From an uncultured Thiotrichales bacterium (GTDB taxonomy: Bacteria; Pseudomonadota; Gammaproteobacteria; GCA-2400775), in assembly GCA_964617475.1 (NCBI GenBank), contig CAZTYM010000004.1, forward strand, positions 2,132-66,131: a stretch of DNA of 64,000 nucleotides. Reading direction: 5' to 3'. Every line of letters starts with the position of its first letter. Position 1 is the stretch's first letter. Positions 3,306 to 20,272 of the stretch are shown here, in pieces. A program made the position numbers and the translations under genes. The notes beneath the pieces were generated by a model. The model did no database searches and was not told the origin of the DNA. It was given only the letters and a program-made list of their open reading frames with translations.

Positions 3306-3371
3306 ATTAGTTTTCTTAATCCACTAAATAAGTAATTACAATTTCTGTAATCAGGTCTAAACCTCAATAAT
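3306..3371 (+). promoter_or_regulatory. OxyR/LysR-type 37-bp box plus -10 hexamer upstream of secreted repeat protein 1
   Basis: ATTA-N7-TAAT-N7-ATAA-N7-CAAT (3306-3342), then AATAAT (3366-3371). Same geometry as the boxes at 4841-4877 and 5370-5406. Confidence 0.6.
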
Positions 3372-3422: not shown

Positions 3423-3818
3423 ATGAAAAACTTGAAGTTAACCGCCACAGCAGCTGCGCTAGTCTCAGCTTTAATATTATCACTTGGTATCGCTCACGCA
3501 GATAACCTAGGTCGTTTAAATGGCTATGCAAAAGTACCAGGTAGTAATAAAACTGCCTTGCCAGTCTCTAATGCGATAGTGGTTGATAAAAGTAGCAAAA
3601 GCACCAGTCATGGTCGTTTAAGCGGTTATGCTGAAAATTCATATGATGCCGCGAGCCAGCTAGAAACGATTCCCGTATTAGCAGGTATGCATGACATAAA
3701 GCCGGTTAAAGAGAGCATTGGTTATGGTCGTTTAGACGCTTACAGCGATCATCAATCAGATGAAAGCGCTACTTATTTTCAAATCTTAGATTCGACCAAT
3801 ACGGCAGTTTGGTACTAA
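3423..3818 (+). CDS. Small secreted protein with three GRLx[GA]Y motifs (paralog 1), function unknown
   Basis: GAGGAG SD, Sec signal ending IAHA, motifs GRLNGY, GRLSGY and GRLDAY. Confidence 0.85.
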   Translation: MKNLKLTATAAALVSALILSLGIAHADNLGRLNGYAKVPGSNKTALPVSNAIVVDKSSKSTSHGRLSGYAENSYDAASQLETIPVLAGMHDIKPVKESIGYGRLDAYSDHQSDESATYFQILDSTNTAVWY

Positions 3819-4351
3819 TAATTTTTACCTAGGTAGTCATTTTTCAGCTCAATATAATGTTGGGCTGAAAACTCCAAGTAGTCTAGTTCCACTTGTTTTA
3901 ACGGCCGTGCTTGTTTTGCTGGCGCACCTACATAAAGAAAACCACTTTCCAAAACTTTACCTGGTGACACTACACTGCCTGCTGCAACCATACAGCGTGA
4001 ATGAATAATGGCACCGTCTAAAACGGTCGCGTTCATTCCAATTAAACAAAACTCTTCTATCGTACAAGCATGTAAAACCGCGCTATGACCTATGGTGACA
4101 TTTTCGCCTATTAACAGTGGTTTACCGCCAGGGACAAATTGGCTATCGCAAGTAACATGTAGCACCGCACCATCTTGAACATTGGTTCCAGCACCAATAG
4201 TTATTGAATTAACATCTCCGCGAGCTACCGCCATTGGCCAAAACGAAACATCTGCACCTATGTTGACATCACCAATTATGCAGGCTGCTTCATCAATATA
4301 AGCAGTATTATCAATGCGAGGTAAAGAAGTTTTATAAGGGCGTATATTCAT
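3815..4351 (-). CDS. yrdA: Gamma-class carbonic anhydrase family protein (YrdA-like)
   Basis: Hexapeptide repeats. RGDVN, NVQDG.VLH and TIGH..VLHAC metal-binding histidines. Confidence 0.9.
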   Translation of the reverse strand: MNIRPYKTSLPRIDNTAYIDEAACIIGDVNIGADVSFWPMAVARGDVNSITIGAGTNVQDGAVLHVTCDSQFVPGGKPLLIGENVTIGHSAVLHACTIEEFCLIGMNATVLDGAIIHSRCMVAAGSVVSPGKVLESGFLYVGAPAKQARPLKQVELDYLEFSAQHYIELKNDYLGKNY

Positions 4352-4372
4352 TAATTAATTATATCAGGCAAT

Positions 4373-4404
4373 AAAAAAGGTGGCAGTGTTAACACTACCA
4401 CCTT
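4373..4404 (-). terminator. Rho-independent terminator of repeat protein 2
   Basis: Hairpin AAGGTGGCAGTGTT/AACACTACCACCTT next to A6 on the plus strand (a U-tract on the minus strand), 20 bp after the stop. Confidence 0.8.
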
Positions 4405-4424
4405 GGTTTGGTTTAGTAAGACAA

Positions 4425-4778
4425 TTAACGAGTTGCGATAGTAGTTTCGTTATCGACTACTTCAGGCGTACCGTAACCGCCTAAACGGCCATATTGACCA
4501 ATATTCGCATAAACACCGCTGCTTACATTATGCTCTTTGTTAATTTCGTTTCCGTAAGCAGCAATGCGACCAAACTGACCAGCATCGGCATACTGTCCTT
4601 TAGCAGCAGCTTCTACTGACCGGTTAAAGGGAACTGTATAGCCATGTAGTCGGCCGTTGTTGCTGCTAGCAACAGGAACAGTGGCACTATCGTTAGAATT
4701 ACCAAAGTCATGTGCTTGCACAAAAGCAGAAGAACTAGCACCAATCAATGCAGCAATTAAAGCAATATTTTTCATCAT
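4425..4778 (-). CDS. Small secreted protein with three GR[LI]x[GA]Y motifs (paralog 2), function unknown
   Basis: GGAG SD, signal peptide MKNIALIAALIGASSSAFVQA, motifs GRLHGY, GRIAAY and GRLGGY spaced 28 and 27 aa. Confidence 0.88.
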   Translation of the reverse strand: MMKNIALIAALIGASSSAFVQAHDFGNSNDSATVPVASSNNGRLHGYTVPFNRSVEAAAKGQYADAGQFGRIAAYGNEINKEHNVSSGVYANIGQYGRLGGYGTPEVVDNETTIATR

Positions 4779-4840
4779 ATATCTCCAATAATTAAAATCA
4801 TTACGTTATTAATTATTGGGCTGATCAATGAAAAACAGAA

Positions 4841-4877
4841 ATTGATTATATTTAATAGTGTATTAGTGAAAGGCTAT
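4841..4877 (-). promoter_or_regulatory. OxyR/LysR-type 37-bp box upstream of repeat protein 2
   Basis: Minus strand reads ATAG-cctttca-CTAA-tacacta-TTAA-atataat-CAAT. AATAAT follows 23 bp later. Confidence 0.65.
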
Positions 4878-4924
4878 TGATGGTTTGATTGTTGTAGAAA
4901 TAATAATTTAAAAAAGACGGATAT

Positions 4925-4958
4925 AAAAAAAGCAGTGAAGCATATGCTCCACTGCTTT
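4925..4958 (-). terminator. Rho-independent terminator of repeat protein 3
   Basis: Hairpin AAAGCAGTGaAGCAT/ATGCTcCACTGCTTT with a plus-strand A-run (U-tract on minus), just after the stop at 4975. Confidence 0.8.
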
Positions 4959-4974
4959 ATGGGTTGCCGTTCAA

Positions 4975-5298
4975 TTAACGAGCAGCAACTTTAGTGTCAT
5001 CAGCAGCATCAGTGATAAGTGAGGGGCTATTGCCGTAACCACTTAAACGACCGAACTCACCTACGTTAGCGTATATGCCTTTGCTAACTTCGAACTCTTC
5101 GTTGATAGCATTACCGTAACCGCTAAGGCGACCAAATTGAGCAACATCTGCGAGCTGACCTTTGTTTTCAACAACGTCTGCTTGTTGAAATGGCACGGTG
5201 TAACCATGAAGACGACCATGGCTATCAATGCTTTCAGCTTGAACAAAAGCGGAAGAGCTAGCGCCAATCAATGCCGCAATTAAAGCAATATTTTTCAT
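4975..5298 (-). CDS. Small secreted protein with three GRLxGY motifs (paralog 3), function unknown
   Basis: AGGAG SD, signal peptide identical to paralog 2, motifs GRLHGY, GRLSGY and GRLSGY spaced 28 and 27 aa. Confidence 0.88.
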   Translation of the reverse strand: MKNIALIAALIGASSSAFVQAESIDSHGRLHGYTVPFQQADVVENKGQLADVAQFGRLSGYGNAINEEFEVSKGIYANVGEFGRLSGYGNSPSLITDAADDTKVAAR

Positions 5299-5369
5299 AA
5301 CATATCTCCTAAAAACTAAATTAAAAACTTTACGGTTTTGATTATGGAGACGATGTCTTGATTAGTAAA

Positions 5370-5406
5370 ATTGATTATTTTTAATATCGCTTTAGTTTGT
5401 TTCTAT
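5370..5406 (-). promoter_or_regulatory. OxyR/LysR-type 37-bp box upstream of repeat protein 3
   Basis: Minus strand reads ATAG-aaacaaa-CTAA-agcgata-TTAA-aaataat-CAAT. CATAAT follows 23 bp later. Confidence 0.65.
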
Positions 5407-18281: not shown

Positions 18282-19487
18282 TTATTCCCCGCTGTTACTT
18301 TGCTCTCGTTGCCATGTGCGTAGTGCGTCTAAAGATCCAGTGATATCAGGTAAGCTGATACTAAGATTTATAGACTCTAGTTCATTGAGTGTTTGCTTAA
18401 GTGCACTGCGTTTACTATTGTCGTCAAAATAAGTGTTCAACCATTGCTTGCTAATATCGAGACTTTGCTTGTAGGTCACTGTATCTCGCTGTATTAGCGA
18501 CAACCTGGCACTTTCAAGTTTTAAGCGCAGGTTTTGATAAATCAGCGCACGTTGGTCTGGCGTCAGTAATGGGTTGCCTGCGCTGCTATCTCCTCGTTCT
18601 CTAACCTTGATTGATAGTAAATCTTTAATCGATTGCAATGCCGTATTGAGACCTTGGCGAACCGGGTTGTTGCTTGTTGTCTCTTCTTTACTATTATCGG
18701 TTGTTGTTTGTGGTGTTTCTTCAGTGCTATCAAAACCGGCGAGAGTGAGTTCATTTACACGTGTTTGTAAGCTTGCAAGCGTGAGTGCGGCGCCGGCTAC
18801 ATCGACGATAACAACAGATTGTAGTTGTGTTATTTCATCAGCAATTTGAGCTCGGATATCTAGCAGTGTCGGATCTCCGGTTTCTCGCAGGCGCTGATCG
18901 GCATTGCGTAAGGCGGCGATTCCACTATCGATATTTGCAGTTAGCAGCAATTGTTGGTTAGCGAGTGATAACAGATATTCAGCCTCAGCAACCAGCCAGC
19001 CAGTCTTAGGGTTGATCTTTAGTTTGCTATGTAAGGCAGTCAGTGTTTCGGCAACTTGCTCAGTGCCACTAACTGCGTTATCGACGTCGCTTTTTAAGGT
19101 GTCAAATTGCTGGTTTTGCTGGTCAATTTTTTCACCTAAATCCGTATTGACGTGGTTGAGCTCATTCATCAATTTACGAATTTCAGTTTGTGCCGACTCG
19201 CTCTGCGTGTTAATGGCGCTATTGACGGTATTTTTTAAGTTCGCTTCGCTGCTTTGTAATTGTTGCCATAACCACCAAACACCAACGCAAGCGGCGATTG
19301 CGACAATGAGGGCAAGCAGAGCAATAAAACTTCCCTTAGAAGTAGATTTTTTAACGTCACTGTCTTTATTTTTAGATTCAACATTGTTGCCAGTGTTGCC
19401 AGTGTTGCCAGTGTTGCCAGTGTTGGCAGGGTTTTTCTTTTCCGCTGCCTTGCTGGCGTTTTTTCCGTTTTCTTTGTTGTCAGTCAC
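18282..19487 (-). CDS. hemX: HemX family protein
   Basis: Transmembrane segment plus coiled coil, W.VAEAEYLL.LANQQL, PLL.P.Q....QNLRL.L and W...YFD. GTG start at 19487 follows GAGG. Confidence 0.9.
   Translation of the reverse strand: MTDNKENGKNASKAAEKKNPANTGNTGNTGNTGNNVESKNKDSDVKKSTSKGSFIALLALIVAIAACVGVWWLWQQLQSSEANLKNTVNSAINTQSESAQTEIRKLMNELNHVNTDLGEKIDQQNQQFDTLKSDVDNAVSGTEQVAETLTALHSKLKINPKTGWLVAEAEYLLSLANQQLLLTANIDSGIAALRNADQRLRETGDPTLLDIRAQIADEITQLQSVVIVDVAGAALTLASLQTRVNELTLAGFDSTEETPQTTTDNSKEETTSNNPVRQGLNTALQSIKDLLSIKVRERGDSSAGNPLLTPDQRALIYQNLRLKLESARLSLIQRDTVTYKQSLDISKQWLNTYFDDNSKRSALKQTLNELESINLSISLPDITGSLDALRTWQREQSNSGE
19385..19425. repeat. 9-bp tandem repeat (TGTTGCCAG)x4.5 in hemX, encoding NTG repeats
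   Basis: Directly visible, in frame, in the low-complexity N-terminus. Confidence 0.9.
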
Positions 19488-19489
19488 GC

Positions 19490-20272
19490 TTACTGCCTCA
19501 ACTCGTTGGTACCACGTCGCCAATTTACTATTGCTGCTTTCATAGCTTCATCACCAGGCTCTAAGCTGGTGACAATATCACGGCGAAAACCTAGCTCCTC
19601 TGCCAGTTTGGCAGTGCGTTGGCTATTACAAGCCAATGCGGTAGTAAAAAGCCACGCTTTGTCGTCACATAGCGTGATCAGGTTTCGCAAGCCTTCTTGG
19701 CTGGTTACTGCAATGATATCGCAGTTTTGGTAGTCGATGACATCAACCAAACGCTGTTTGGGTAAATGCCGTTGATAAACCTCAATATAATCGACTTGTG
19801 CACCGCGATCGGTCAGTGTTTGTGCTAGTGTTTCTCGGCCACCGACACCGCGAATAATAGCTATGCGTTTATCAGCGACGCATTGTAATAACGGTAGCGC
19901 AAGTAGCGCTTCCGTGTTGAAGCCTGATTTTGGCAATATACTGACAGCAATGCCATGGGCGCGTAAGCTGGCTGCTGTTTTGTTGCCGACAGCAGCAATT
20001 TTTAAACCCTCAGATTGGTCGCTAAAACCGCACGCTAAGGCGTGTTTGACCGCATTTGCGCTAATAAAAATAGCGATGTTATAGCGACTCAAGTCTTGTA
20101 ACCGCTGCTCGATCATCGCTTTGTCTGATGCGGGTGCCACTTCGATTACTGGAAAGCGGATTGCTGTACCGCCTTCCGCTTCGATCATGCGACAAAACTC
20201 TTCTGCCTGGTGAGCGGGTCGCGTCACCAGAACCGAAGTATCAACTAAGGGTGGGTGCTCAGTGCTCAGCAT
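19490..20272 (-). CDS. hemD: Uroporphyrinogen-III synthase
   Basis: VLVTRP, FISANAV, AVG.KTA, RG.GGRE.L and EVYQR. ATG at 20272 overlaps the hemC end. Confidence 0.93.

What the first reader, a model, noticed from the sequence alone, without database searches (positions are those of the whole stretch)
3423..5298. Family of three small secreted proteins, each with three GR[LI]x[GA]Y repeats: candidate undescribed system
Seen: ORFs 3423-3818(+), 4425-4778(-) and 4975-5298(-) all have strong SDs, Sec signals ending AHA or VQA, no Cys, and exactly three copies of one motif. The nine copies are L-GRLNGY, H-GRLSGY, Y-GRLDAY; N-GRLHGY, F-GRIAAY, Y-GRLGGY; H-GRLHGY, F-GRLSGY, F-GRLSGY. In paralogs 2 and 3 the period is 28 then 27 aa, with an extended unit G.YA...[QE][FY]GRL.GYG. 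In paralog 1 the linkers are 34 and 38 aa and unrelated, so selection appears to keep only the motif and its count. I do not recognise this motif from any family. Inference: largely disordered exported proteins presenting a trivalent short linear motif. Options are a binder or inhibitor of a trimeric periplasmic or outer-membrane target, a self-assembling (amyloid or granule-coat) subunit, or a multi-core peptide precursor.
Basis: partly seen in the sequence, partly recalled or inferred. Interest (0 to 1): 0.85.

Follow-up and report, generated by a model that had tools for sequence, protein, structure and literature searches.

The report
Small secreted three-motif protein family
Four small exported proteins, probably abundant and each carrying three copies of a Gly-Arg-Leu-x-Gly-Tyr motif, occur only in one genus of uncultured carbon-fixing gammaproteobacteria, fit no described protein family, and have no known function.

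Summary
ORFs 3423-3818(+), 4425-4778(-) and 4975-5298(-) each encode a Sec-type signal peptide followed by exactly three GR[LI]x[GA]Y motifs. These nine copies are 9 of only 16 in all ORFs of the genome.

A fourth paralog lies on another contig. The four lines (A, B, B, C) are homologous by profile comparison and share a promoter layout found at no other gene start. Their codon usage is at or above ribosomal-protein level. They evolve under purifying selection.

Across the lines only the motif G/R/L/Y columns are invariant. Within a line the linkers, and above all the spacing (28/27 residues in 19 of 19 B proteins), are conserved.

The family has no Pfam, NCBIfam or PDB match. It gave 11 strong hits among 1.84 billion representative proteins, and it was found in only one genus.

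Structure prediction gives no confident fold. A RiPP-precursor reading and a sulfur-globule reading are both disfavoured. The nearest resemblances are motif-level only: an atypical YD-repeat protein and an unrelated-looking [FY]GRDSVYA x3 family.

Best guess, at low confidence: abundant trivalent envelope or matrix cross-linkers. The function remains unproven.

The parts
3423..3818 (+). Paralog A (131 aa; mature about 105 aa, 11.3 kDa, pI 5.5). Signal peptide ends AHA. Motifs GRLNGY, GRLSGY, GRLDAY.
   Evidence: Orthologs in 6 other records conserve the three motifs plus the PVLAGM..KPVK and AVW[YH] blocks.
3510..3527 (+). A motif 1 (GRLNGY)
   Evidence: read directly from the sequence.
3612..3629 (+). 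A motif 2 (GRLSGY)
3726..3743 (+). A motif 3 (GRLDAY)
3336..3371 (+). Shared promoter core upstream of A: TTACAATTTC, then 20 nt, then AATAAT.
   Evidence: Conserved in 5 of 6 A orthologs, although synonymous sites are saturated.
4425..4778 (-). Paralog B1 (116-117 aa; likely start 4775). Signal peptide ends VQA. Motifs GRLHGY, GRIAAY, GRLGGY.
4638..4655 (-). B1 motif 1
   Evidence: coordinates computed from start 4775.
4554..4571 (-). B1 motif 2
4473..4490 (-). B1 motif 3
   Evidence: checked against the printed sequence.
4812..4866 (-). Shared promoter layout upstream of B1: CTAAT, then N17, then AATCAATTTC, then N20, then AATAAT.
4377..4404 (-). Intrinsic-terminator-like hairpin (12 pairs plus a T run) directly after B1.
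4975..5298 (-). Paralog B2 (107 aa). Signal peptide ends VQA. Motifs GRLHGY, GRLSGY, GRLSGY.
5200..5217 (-). B2 motif 1
5116..5133 (-). B2 motif 2
5035..5052 (-). B2 motif 3
   Evidence: checked against the printed sequence.
5341..5376 (-). Shared promoter core upstream of B2.
4929..4958 (-). Intrinsic-terminator-like hairpin (13 pairs plus a T run) directly after B2.
3815..4351 (-). Hexapeptide-repeat (gamma-carbonic-anhydrase-like by its sequence pattern) gene lying between A and B1. It has no signal peptide. It is listed only as the conserved neighbour and is not proposed as part of the system.
   Evidence: same gene order in G002. The family name rests on my reading of the sequence; it was not scanned.

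Best explanation
SHOWN: This is a genus-restricted superfamily of four paralogous lines (A; B1 and B2; C on another contig). The proteins are small (mature 6-11 kDa), acidic, hydrophilic and of the Sec-exported type. Each has exactly three copies of G-[R]-[LIM]-x-[GA]-Y at a spacing fixed within each line. The genes are under purifying selection. Each is a stand-alone gene. They share a promoter layout found at no other gene start in the genome, and their codon usage is ribosomal-protein-like.

INFERRED (low confidence): They are abundant structural proteins of the periplasm or cell surface. The three Arg/Tyr motifs would act as 'stickers', possibly YD-like beta-hairpin turns that order only on contact. 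Each molecule could then make three contacts, with itself, with its paralogs or with a repeating envelope or matrix partner, and so build a cross-linked network in the envelope or biofilm matrix. From polymer theory as I recall it, three is the smallest valence that can give a network rather than a chain.

My confidence that this is a real, exported, motif-constrained new family is about 0.85. My confidence in the cross-linker mechanism is about 0.25-0.3.
For: - **Reality and export type:**
- **Motif frequency:** 9 of the genome's 16 strict motif copies are in these three ORFs.
- **Homology of the lines:** hhalign gives A~B 97%, C~B 95% and C~A 95%.
- **Invariant columns:** apart from M1 and K2, the only invariant columns across 31 sequences are the motif residues G, R, L and Y.
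- **Copy number:** all 32 sequences have three aligned copies. By regex, 31 of 32 have exactly three; the one extra hit is GNLGNL in a low-complexity stretch.
- **Selection:** synonymous sites are saturated and dN is 0.19-0.54. In the 7 of 10 pairs where dS could be computed, dN/dS is 0.07-0.23. Motif dN is below the rest in 10 of 10 pairs.
- **Predicted abundance:** CAI against 25 ribosomal-protein genes is 0.72-0.75 for all four genes. The ribosomal median is 0.70, and all four are at or above the 99.7th percentile of 1192 long ORFs. Strong terminator-like hairpins follow B1 and B2.
- **Co-regulation:** the promoter boxes are conserved across A, B and C and across species. The core pattern has 13 genome-wide hits, 4 of them at the four family genes.
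- **No confident fold as a monomer:** AF2 pLDDT is 47.8 for B and 51.4 for A, with no secondary structure. The Atlas model of A has pLDDT 0.45.
- **Hairpin lead:** the family profile aligns pairs of its motifs, at the same spacing, to G[RQ]IxGY...YDExGRMxGY units of a YD-repeat protein.
- **Source:** the DNA comes from a biofilm metagenome (weak).
- **Recalled, not tested:** that Arg and Tyr act as stickers, and that valence 3 is the threshold for a network.
Against: - No experiment and no expression data exist.
- No partner, secretion channel or assembly genes lie nearby. The neighbours are Hsp33, a hexapeptide-repeat protein, glutathione reductase and oligopeptidase A. For C they are a DUF3179-like ORF (named from my reading) and mnmG.
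- CsgG was found in 0 of 9 genomes of the genus, so a route across the outer membrane is unknown.
- The strictly fixed spacing and the conserved linker blocks fit a defined fold or a fixed-geometry ligand at least as well as a loose sticker-spacer polymer.
- CAI for genes of 250-400 nt is noisy.
- The shared promoter may simply be inherited from the duplications.
- AF2 disorder calls on alignments of 22-32 close relatives are weak evidence.
Confidence: 0.3

Rival explanations
1. Ligand or metal 'sponge': a small periplasmic protein that wraps around a metal ion, oxyanion or mineral surface. It would use one Arg and one Tyr from each of three motifs, working like PcoE/SilE, which are disordered until loaded.
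For: - The best named look-alike by language-model features is PcoE for both B (rank 20, 0.85) and A (rank 1, 0.85, 154 shared features). Both scores are below the tool's own bar, so this is a lead only.
- The proteins are acidic, hydrophilic and without a confident fold.
- Fixed spacing would suit a fixed coordination geometry.
- His is nearly invariant in B motif 1.
- The host has many periplasmic haem proteins, including a 10-CXXCH cytochrome.
Against: - There is no Pfam PcoE match.
- There are no Met/His clusters in the sequence.
- No metal-resistance or transport genes are adjacent.
- The x position of the motif, including His, is not conserved across lines.
- Four abundant paralogs with spacings ranging from 23 to 38 are odd for a single ligand geometry.
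Confidence: 0.17
2. Trivalent binder or regulator of an oligomeric (for example trimeric) envelope protein such as a porin, TolC or a periplasmic protease. One motif would bind per protomer.
For: The copy number is exactly three in all four lines and in 32 of 32 aligned sequences. The motif is the only element shared between the lines.
Against: - No candidate partner is encoded nearby or co-varies.
- Ribosomal-level codon usage suggests bulk amounts rather than a regulator.
- The distantly similar GRDSVYA family has 3 or 4 copies.
- No test against any partner was run.
Confidence: 0.13
3. Small folded beta-hairpin protein derived from or convergent with YD/Rhs repeats. Three hairpins would form one compact sheet with a specific, for example carbohydrate- or protein-binding, surface.
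For: - The family profile hits a 784-aa protein (E 3.4e-6 over 1.84 billion proteins, 4 stretches).
- That protein passes NCBIfam YD_repeat_2x (27.2 bits, cut-off 15.8).
- The alignment puts GRMxGY on GRLxGY and keeps the inter-motif spacing.
- Spacing within each line is fixed.
- In line C the motif is preceded by an alternating I-A-I-S pattern.
Against: - The family's own proteins match neither RHS_repeat nor YD_repeat_2x, even at E up to 10.
- They have no 'YD' before the GR.
- AF2 predicts no strands.
- A single repetitive hit can be inflated by composition bias (bias 11.8 of 43.4 bits).
Confidence: 0.12
4. Coat proteins of a periplasmic or extracellular deposit, working like sulfur globule proteins (Sgp).
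For: - There are several small Sec-signal paralogs.
- They are stand-alone genes with their own terminators.
- Predicted expression is very high.
- They contain Gly and Tyr.
- The host is an autotroph with form-I RuBisCO next to a CsoS2-like gene.
- The relatives' records carry Thiotrichales and 'Beggiatoa' labels.
Against: - The 97.7%-complete genome has no SoxY or SoxZ, no DsrC above cut-off, no FccB flavin domain and no AprA above cut-off.
- The mature proteins are hydrophilic (GRAVY -0.36 to -0.60). Sgp proteins are called 'extremely hydrophobic' in the abstract of PMC10386293 (seen in the listing only).
- SQR and sHdr were not tested.
Confidence: 0.07
5. Multi-core RiPP precursor: three core peptides cut out and modified.
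For: - The short motif is repeated.
- The distantly similar GRDSVYA protein lies 625 bp from a GrrM/OscB cyclophane-forming radical SAM gene in the one context I read (TIGR04261, 418 bits).
- Tyr-x-x cyclophanes are known chemistry (passages of PMC11002830).
Against: - TIGR04261 gave 0 of 9 genomes of the genus at E <= 1e-5, while cross-hitting other SPASM enzymes in 6 of 14 control genomes.
- No maturase, protease or exporter gene is adjacent.
- The N-terminus is a classic Sec signal, not a leader peptide.
- The residues after Tyr are not conserved.
- Linkers and spacing are conserved.
- In the GRDSVYA context, another ORF directly upstream of the radical SAM gene ends in two W-x-[DN] motifs and is the likelier substrate.
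Confidence: 0.03

Closest known systems
YD / Rhs repeat (Pfam PF05593, NCBIfam TIGR01643)
   Same: A G-R-[LM] turn followed by a strand. One atypical YD-repeat protein (P0029) carries GRMxGY units at about 28-34-residue spacing that align to pairs of this family's motifs.
   Different: - The family has no YD dipeptide and no match to either repeat model.
- It has only three copies in a 6-11 kDa secreted protein, rather than dozens forming a shell. The shell description is recalled.
- No strands are predicted.
Functional amyloid subunits FapC/FapB and CsgA (architecture recalled from memory)
   Same: - Sec signal.
- A small number of imperfect Gly/Asn/Gln/aromatic repeats.
- In FapC, as I recall, three repeats separated by linkers of variable length, with paralogs that differ in linker length.
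- Stand-alone structural role in biofilms.
   Different: - No Pfam match to curlin or any other family.
- No CsgG in 0 of 9 genomes.
- No adjacent assembly operon.
- AF2 gives no solenoid.
- FapF was not searched.
Sulfur globule proteins SgpA-D
   Same: Several small Sec-signal, Gly/Tyr-containing paralogs in separate transcription units (the transcription units are recalled). Expected high expression.
   Different: The host lacks the Sox, Dsr, FccB and Apr markers tested. The proteins are hydrophilic rather than 'extremely hydrophobic' (abstract of PMC10386293, seen in the listing).
PcoE / SilE periplasmic metal sponges (Pfam PF27346)
   Same: Small periplasmic proteobacterial proteins with repeated short motifs and no stable fold (the lack of fold is recalled). 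They are the nearest named clusters by language-model features (0.85).
   Different: No Pfam match. No Met/His motifs. No metal-resistance context.
Uncharacterised [FY]GRDSVYA x3-4 family
   Same: Signal peptide plus three (sometimes four) [FY]-G-R-x-S-x-Y copies at similar spacing. It was hit by the family profile at E 6.6e-4 over 1.84 billion proteins and aligned across all three motifs (35.8 bits).
   Different: - hhalign probability is only 52% against line B and 5.8% against line A.
- The composition differs (Ala/Arg-rich, high-GC hosts).
- The family itself has no annotation, Pfam or NCBIfam match, so it adds no function.
Triceptide (three-residue cyclophane) RiPP precursors
   Same: Short aromatic-containing motifs repeated in a small precursor (passages of PMC11002830).
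   Different: No cyclophane radical SAM gene in the genus. The N-terminus is a Sec signal. The X3 residue is not conserved.

Membership tests
YD/Rhs repeat proteins | Match to RHS_repeat (PF05593) or YD_repeat_2x (TIGR01643) above the curated cut-off. | tested here: not met
   0 families for A, B1 and B2 at E up to 10 in Pfam and NCBIfam. HMMER filters drop most hits above about 0.1.
YD/Rhs repeat proteins | Tyr-Asp dipeptide three to four residues before the G-R/N-L turn (consensus recalled). | tested here: not met
   The alignments show Gly, Ser or variable residues there, and no YD.
YD/Rhs repeat proteins | Many tandem repeats forming a large shell (recalled). | tested here: not met
   Three copies in 81-131 aa.
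Sulfur globule proteins | Host oxidises reduced sulfur and stores sulfur. | tested here: not met
   SoxZ, SoxY and FccB: 0 matches. DsrC 21.9 bits, below its cut-off. AprA at most 29.6 bits against a cut-off of 641. SQR and sHdr were not tested. Genome is 97.7% complete.
Sulfur globule proteins | Very hydrophobic small envelope proteins. | tested here: not met
   Mature GRAVY is -0.36 to -0.60, against 'extremely hydrophobic' in the abstract of PMC10386293 (listing).
Sulfur globule proteins | Sequence similarity to SgpA-D. | not testable with these tools
   No Sgp sequence or model was in hand. Pfam and NCBIfam gave no hit of any kind.
Curli / Fap functional amyloids | Match to a curlin or Fap repeat family. 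| tested here: not met
   No Pfam family at E up to 10.
Curli / Fap functional amyloids | Dedicated outer-membrane secretion and assembly genes (CsgG; FapF). | tested here: not met
   CsgG PF03783: 0 of 9 genomes of the genus, while the control rang in 4 of 14. FapF was not searched. No such genes are adjacent.
Triceptide / radical-SAM RiPP precursors | A cyclophane-forming radical SAM/SPASM maturase in the genome, normally adjacent. | tested here: not met
   TIGR04261: 0 of 9 genomes at E <= 1e-5. The control cross-hit 6 of 14 genomes. The neighbours are housekeeping genes.
Triceptide / radical-SAM RiPP precursors | Conserved aromatic-X-X core motif with a defined third residue. | tested here: not met
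   The residues after Tyr vary within and between lines.
PcoE/SilE | Match to PF27346 and Met/His metal-binding motifs. | tested here: not met
   No Pfam hit. The sequences have 0-1 Met and 2-3 His in the mature part. The Atlas score of 0.85 is below its bar.
Sec-exported proteins (general) | N-terminal n-, h- and c-regions with an AxA cleavage site, and no lipobox Cys. | tested here: inconclusive
   Seen by eye in all 32 sequences. No SignalP run and no experiment.

The most novel reading that the evidence does not exclude
These are extracytoplasmic 'sticker-and-spacer' scaffold proteins. Four co-regulated, very abundant paralogs each have the minimal network-forming valence of three Arg/Tyr stickers. 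They would condense or gel in the periplasm or on the cell surface to form a material, a bacterial envelope or biofilm hydrogel. That material might then be fixed by Tyr-Tyr oxidative cross-linking through the host's unusually numerous periplasmic dihaem CCP/MauG peroxidases, working like extensin or resilin matrices. This would be a new class of bacterial matrix protein.
Probability: 0.08. Interest if true: 0.8.

Novelty: new variant of a known kind. Interest (0 to 1): 0.45.

Why it matters
If the proteins are as abundant as their codon usage and gene layout suggest, they are a major, entirely uncharacterised component of the cell envelope or matrix. The host is an uncultured, streamlined (about 2.4 Mb) carboxysome-bearing chemoautotroph that appears in metagenome-assembled genomes.

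The design is very simple: three copies of a six-residue motif at fixed spacing, kept in four paralog lines that otherwise share about 25% identity. That makes it an attractive model for how short linear motifs and valence are selected in exported bacterial proteins.

It also gives a clean target for expression, mutagenesis and biophysics. At present, however, it is a well-defined family of unknown function in one genus, not a demonstrated system.

Tried and rejected
- **Complex prediction**, three copies of mature B1 with alignment A4: 'no answer' (score 0.02, mark 0.42). It counts neither for nor against self-association.
- **The look-up of sequencing runs**: no RNA holder listed. There were only 4 DNA runs from one study, which may be the source sample, so there is nothing on expression.
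- **PDB sequence search** with the family profile: 0 hits at E up to 10.
- **Fold search** was not used, because both models were of low confidence.
- **Atlas**: all scores were 0.90 or below, and structure matches had TM below 0.4. These are leads only.
- **Literature**: of twelve motif strings, none appeared in a relevant paper. One search's 102 hits were author names and an unrelated oyster defensin. One search gave 0 papers.
- **P0030 and P0031** from the big search: I judged them spurious. P0030 is an Ala-rich 1482-aa repeat and P0031 is a coiled coil with QDGRLDA repeats.
- **Tyrosinase** and **AMO**: no match, but the controls rang nowhere, so these are uninformative.
- **NiFe hydrogenase:** present in 4 of 9 genomes of the genus but not in G000. 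The energy source of the organism was not resolved.
- **NCBIfam scans of four multihaem cytochromes** gave only sub-threshold names.
- **The search for related loci with alignment A6** failed because it had no conserved stretch. I repeated the search with the single protein P0040.
- **Gamma-CA-like trimer** encoded between A and B1: considered as a target and rejected, because it has no signal peptide.
- **Wider regulon:** the promoter pattern found only the four family genes at gene starts.
Full report
**The observation.** Each has a GGAG-type ribosome-binding site and an N-terminus of the Sec signal type (MKN, a hydrophobic core, then AHA or VQA). None has a Cys, and each has three copies of GR[LI]x[GA]Y.

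The spacings are 34/38 residues in the first ORF and 28/27 in the other two. The middle ORF more likely starts at 4775, as its orthologs do.

The motif is far from chance. Over all six-frame ORFs of at least 50 aa in the 2.36 Mb genome (1.12 million residues), the strict pattern occurs 16 times. Nine of these are in the three ORFs, and no other ORF has more than one.

**A fourth member and the family's shape.** The genome search found a fourth, shorter member on another contig (G000:C38:11426-11674; 82 aa; GNFGGY, GRLNVY, GRLSGY).

Collecting relatives from the protein database, from genome contigs and from the eight other genomes of the same GTDB genus gives three lines:
- Line A: about 125-131 aa.
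- Line B: 99-120 aa, usually two or three tandem genes.
- Line C: 81-87 aa, one or two genes.

Profile-profile comparison supports common ancestry: A~B 97%, C~B 95% and C~A 95%.

In the joint alignment of 31 sequences the only invariant columns, besides Met1 and Lys2, are motif residues:
- Motif 1: G and Y.
- Motif 2: G, R and Y.
- Motif 3: G, R, L and Y.

All 32 sequences examined carry three aligned copies.

It does not hold within a line. Line A orthologs keep invariant T.PVLAGM..KPVK and D..N.AVW blocks and a C-terminal aromatic or His residue. Line B keeps GQ[YH]AD..[QE]FGR and KGVYAN.G.[YF]GRL. Spacing is almost frozen:
- Line B: 28/27 in 19 of 19.
- Line A: 33-35/38 in 6 of 6.
- Line C: 25-26/23-27 in 7 of 7.

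Frozen spacing argues for a defined geometry, not free spacers.

**Are these real, selected, expressed genes?** In ten ortholog or paralog pairs the synonymous sites are saturated, while dN is 0.19-0.54. In the 7 of 10 pairs where dS could be computed, dN/dS is 0.07-0.23. The dN of the 18 motif codons (0-0.18) is below that of the rest (0.20-0.64) in all ten pairs.

B1 and B2 are each followed at once by a 12-13-bp GC-rich hairpin and a T run.

Measured against 25 ribosomal-protein genes of the same genome, the four genes have CAI 0.72-0.75. That is above the ribosomal median of 0.70 and at or above the 99.7th percentile of 1192 long ORFs. The neighbouring genes sit at the 74th-95th percentile.

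Upstream, all lines in all species share the layout CTAAT, then N14-17, then WWW[CT][AG]ATTT[CT], then N18-21, then a -10-like [ACG]ATA[AC]T, about 35-50 nt before the start codon. In G000 the core pattern occurs 13 times. Four of those are at the four family genes, and my crude rule found no gene start at the other nine.

So these are stand-alone, co-regulated genes that are probably very highly expressed. I could obtain no direct expression data.

**What they are not.**
- Pfam and NCBIfam give nothing, even at E up to 10. The PDB sequence search gives nothing.
- A profile of all three lines, searched against 1.84 billion representative proteins, returned 15 proteins at E <= 1e-3. Eleven had E <= 1e-10. 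I read eight of these and they are family members. I did not read P0022, P0023 and P0026.
- The family was found in 8 of 9 genomes of its genus. The miss is a genome that is 75% complete.
- In a sample of 300 genomes from 270 genera of the class, only the 2 genomes of this genus had a match.
- Record titles name only 'Gammaproteobacteria' or 'Thiotrichales bacterium' MAGs and one 'Beggiatoa alba' label.

**Structure.**
- AlphaFold2 with the B alignment gives pLDDT 47.8 and no secondary structure beyond the signal helix.
- With A as the target and all 32 sequences, it gives pLDDT 51.4 and the same picture.
- The ESM Atlas model of A has pLDDT 0.45.
- The mature proteins are 6-11 kDa, acidic (pI 4.7-5.8) and hydrophilic (GRAVY -0.36 to -0.60), and rich in Gly, Ala, Ser and Asn.

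This fits proteins that are disordered on their own. Shallow alignments make it weak evidence, and the frozen spacing points the other way.

**Leads from the weak hits.** Two of the four non-family hits of the big search are informative.

P0029 is a 784-aa protein that passes NCBIfam YD_repeat_2x (27.2 bits against a cut-off of 15.8). Its units (...YNxLGQIxGY... about 28 residues ...YDExGRMxGY...) align to pairs of the family's motifs at the same spacing. This suggests that each GRLxGY may be the turn and second strand of a YD-like beta-hairpin. However, the family itself has no YD dipeptide and fails both repeat models.

P0032 represents another unannotated family of 37 proteins, with a signal peptide and three or four [FY]GRDSVYA copies. 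It aligns across all three motifs (35.8 bits), but hhalign gives only 52% against B and 5.8% against A.

In the single genomic context I could read, that protein lies 625 bp from a divergent GrrM/OscB cyclophane-forming radical SAM gene (TIGR04261, 418 bits). This briefly revived the RiPP idea. But an ORF directly upstream of that enzyme ends in AWTDWKNE, which is two Trp-x-Asp/Asn units. That is the kind of site OscB is reported to cross-link (passages of PMC11002830), so that ORF is the likelier substrate. More to the point, TIGR04261 finds nothing in any of the 9 genomes of our genus at E <= 1e-5, although it cross-hits other SPASM enzymes in 6 of 14 control genomes. The RiPP reading is therefore disfavoured.

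**The host.** The genome is 97.7% complete, in 71 contigs. It has form-I RuBisCO with a small subunit and a CsoS2-like gene downstream, which points to an alpha-carboxysome autotroph.

It lacks the following:
- SoxY and SoxZ.
- DsrC above cut-off.
- The FccB flavin domain.
- AprA above cut-off.
- A NiFe hydrogenase.
- CsgG.

AMO and tyrosinase searches were also blank, but their controls rang nowhere.

The genome does have a 10-CXXCH cytochrome, other multihaem proteins and six intact CCP/MauG dihaem peroxidase genes. By number of matches that is the most among 41 relatives searched.

I could not settle its energy source. The lack of sulfur-oxidation markers and the hydrophilicity of the proteins weaken the otherwise attractive analogy with sulfur globule proteins.

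**Neighbourhood.** The gene order is Hsp33, A, a hexapeptide-repeat protein, B1, B2, glutathione reductase, oligopeptidase A. It is the same in a relative. C lies between a DUF3179-like ORF and mnmG. Nothing nearby suggests a partner, a maturase or a secretion system.

**Most likely mechanism.** I commit, at about 0.3, to abundant exported structural proteins whose three Arg/Tyr motifs act as contact points. They would cross-link themselves, each other or a repeating envelope or matrix component.

The support is as follows:
- Conservation is limited to the motif across lines.
- The count is fixed at three.
- Predicted expression is high.
- The four paralogs are co-regulated.
- No monomer fold is predicted.
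- There is a hairpin-like resemblance to a YD-repeat protein.
- The source is a biofilm.

The rivals are:
- A ligand or metal sponge working like PcoE/SilE (0.17).
- A binder of an oligomeric envelope protein (0.13).
- A small folded three-hairpin protein (0.12).
- A deposit coat like Sgp (0.07).
- A RiPP precursor (0.03).

**Verdict.** The finding is real and the family is undescribed. It is also confined to one uncultured genus, has no functional evidence, and sits in no 'system' context. I rate it a new variant of the known kind 'small Sec-exported tandem-motif proteins', with interest 0.45.

Noticed in passing
G000:C38:11426-11674 (outside the window; L003:1450-1695): Fourth paralog line (C). 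It is 82 aa with a signal peptide and the motifs GNFGGY, GRLNVY and GRLSGY. It lies between a DUF3179-like ORF and mnmG, and has the same promoter layout and the highest CAI of the four (0.748).
   Followed up: yes
L032:6001-6345(+), L032:4132-5376(-), L032:5452-5742(-): An unannotated family of 37 small proteins has a signal peptide and 3-4 copies of [FY]GRDSVYA. In the one context read, it lies beside a GrrM/OscB cyclophane-forming radical SAM gene. The likelier precursor of that enzyme is a separate upstream ORF ending AWTDWKNE.
   Followed up: partly
window 3336-3371, 4812-4866, 5341-5376; G000:C38:11321-11375: A promoter layout (CTAAT ... WWWCAATTTC ... N18-21 ... xATAAT) is shared by all four family genes and conserved across species, although synonymous sites are saturated. 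The core pattern has 13 hits in the genome, 4 of them at these genes.
   Followed up: yes
G000:C5:75538-76674; C9:410-2483; C54:4283-6334; C16:21848-22816: Six intact CCP/MauG dihaem cytochrome c peroxidase genes, two pairs of them in tandem, in a 2.36 Mb genome. By number of matches this is the most among 41 relatives searched.
   Followed up: partly
G000:C32:7447-8373 and downstream (L031): Form-I RuBisCO large and small subunits followed by a CsoS2-like repeat protein, so the organism is an alpha-carboxysome autotroph. None of the sulfur, ammonia or hydrogen oxidation markers I tested was found in G000, and the energy source is unresolved. Part of the RuBisCO gene reads as masked N.
   Followed up: partly
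G000:C3:19796-21196 and C62:2299-4011: A 466-aa protein with ten CXXCH sites (weak DmsE-family hit) and a 570-aa six-CXXCH protein with a C-terminal thioredoxin-like part (weak ExtKL hit). These may indicate extracellular or periplasmic electron transfer.
   Followed up: partly
window 18282-19523 (-): This ORF carries a short NTGNTGNTGNTGNN low-complexity run near its N-terminus. It lies next to haem-biosynthesis-like genes and was not examined.
   Followed up: no
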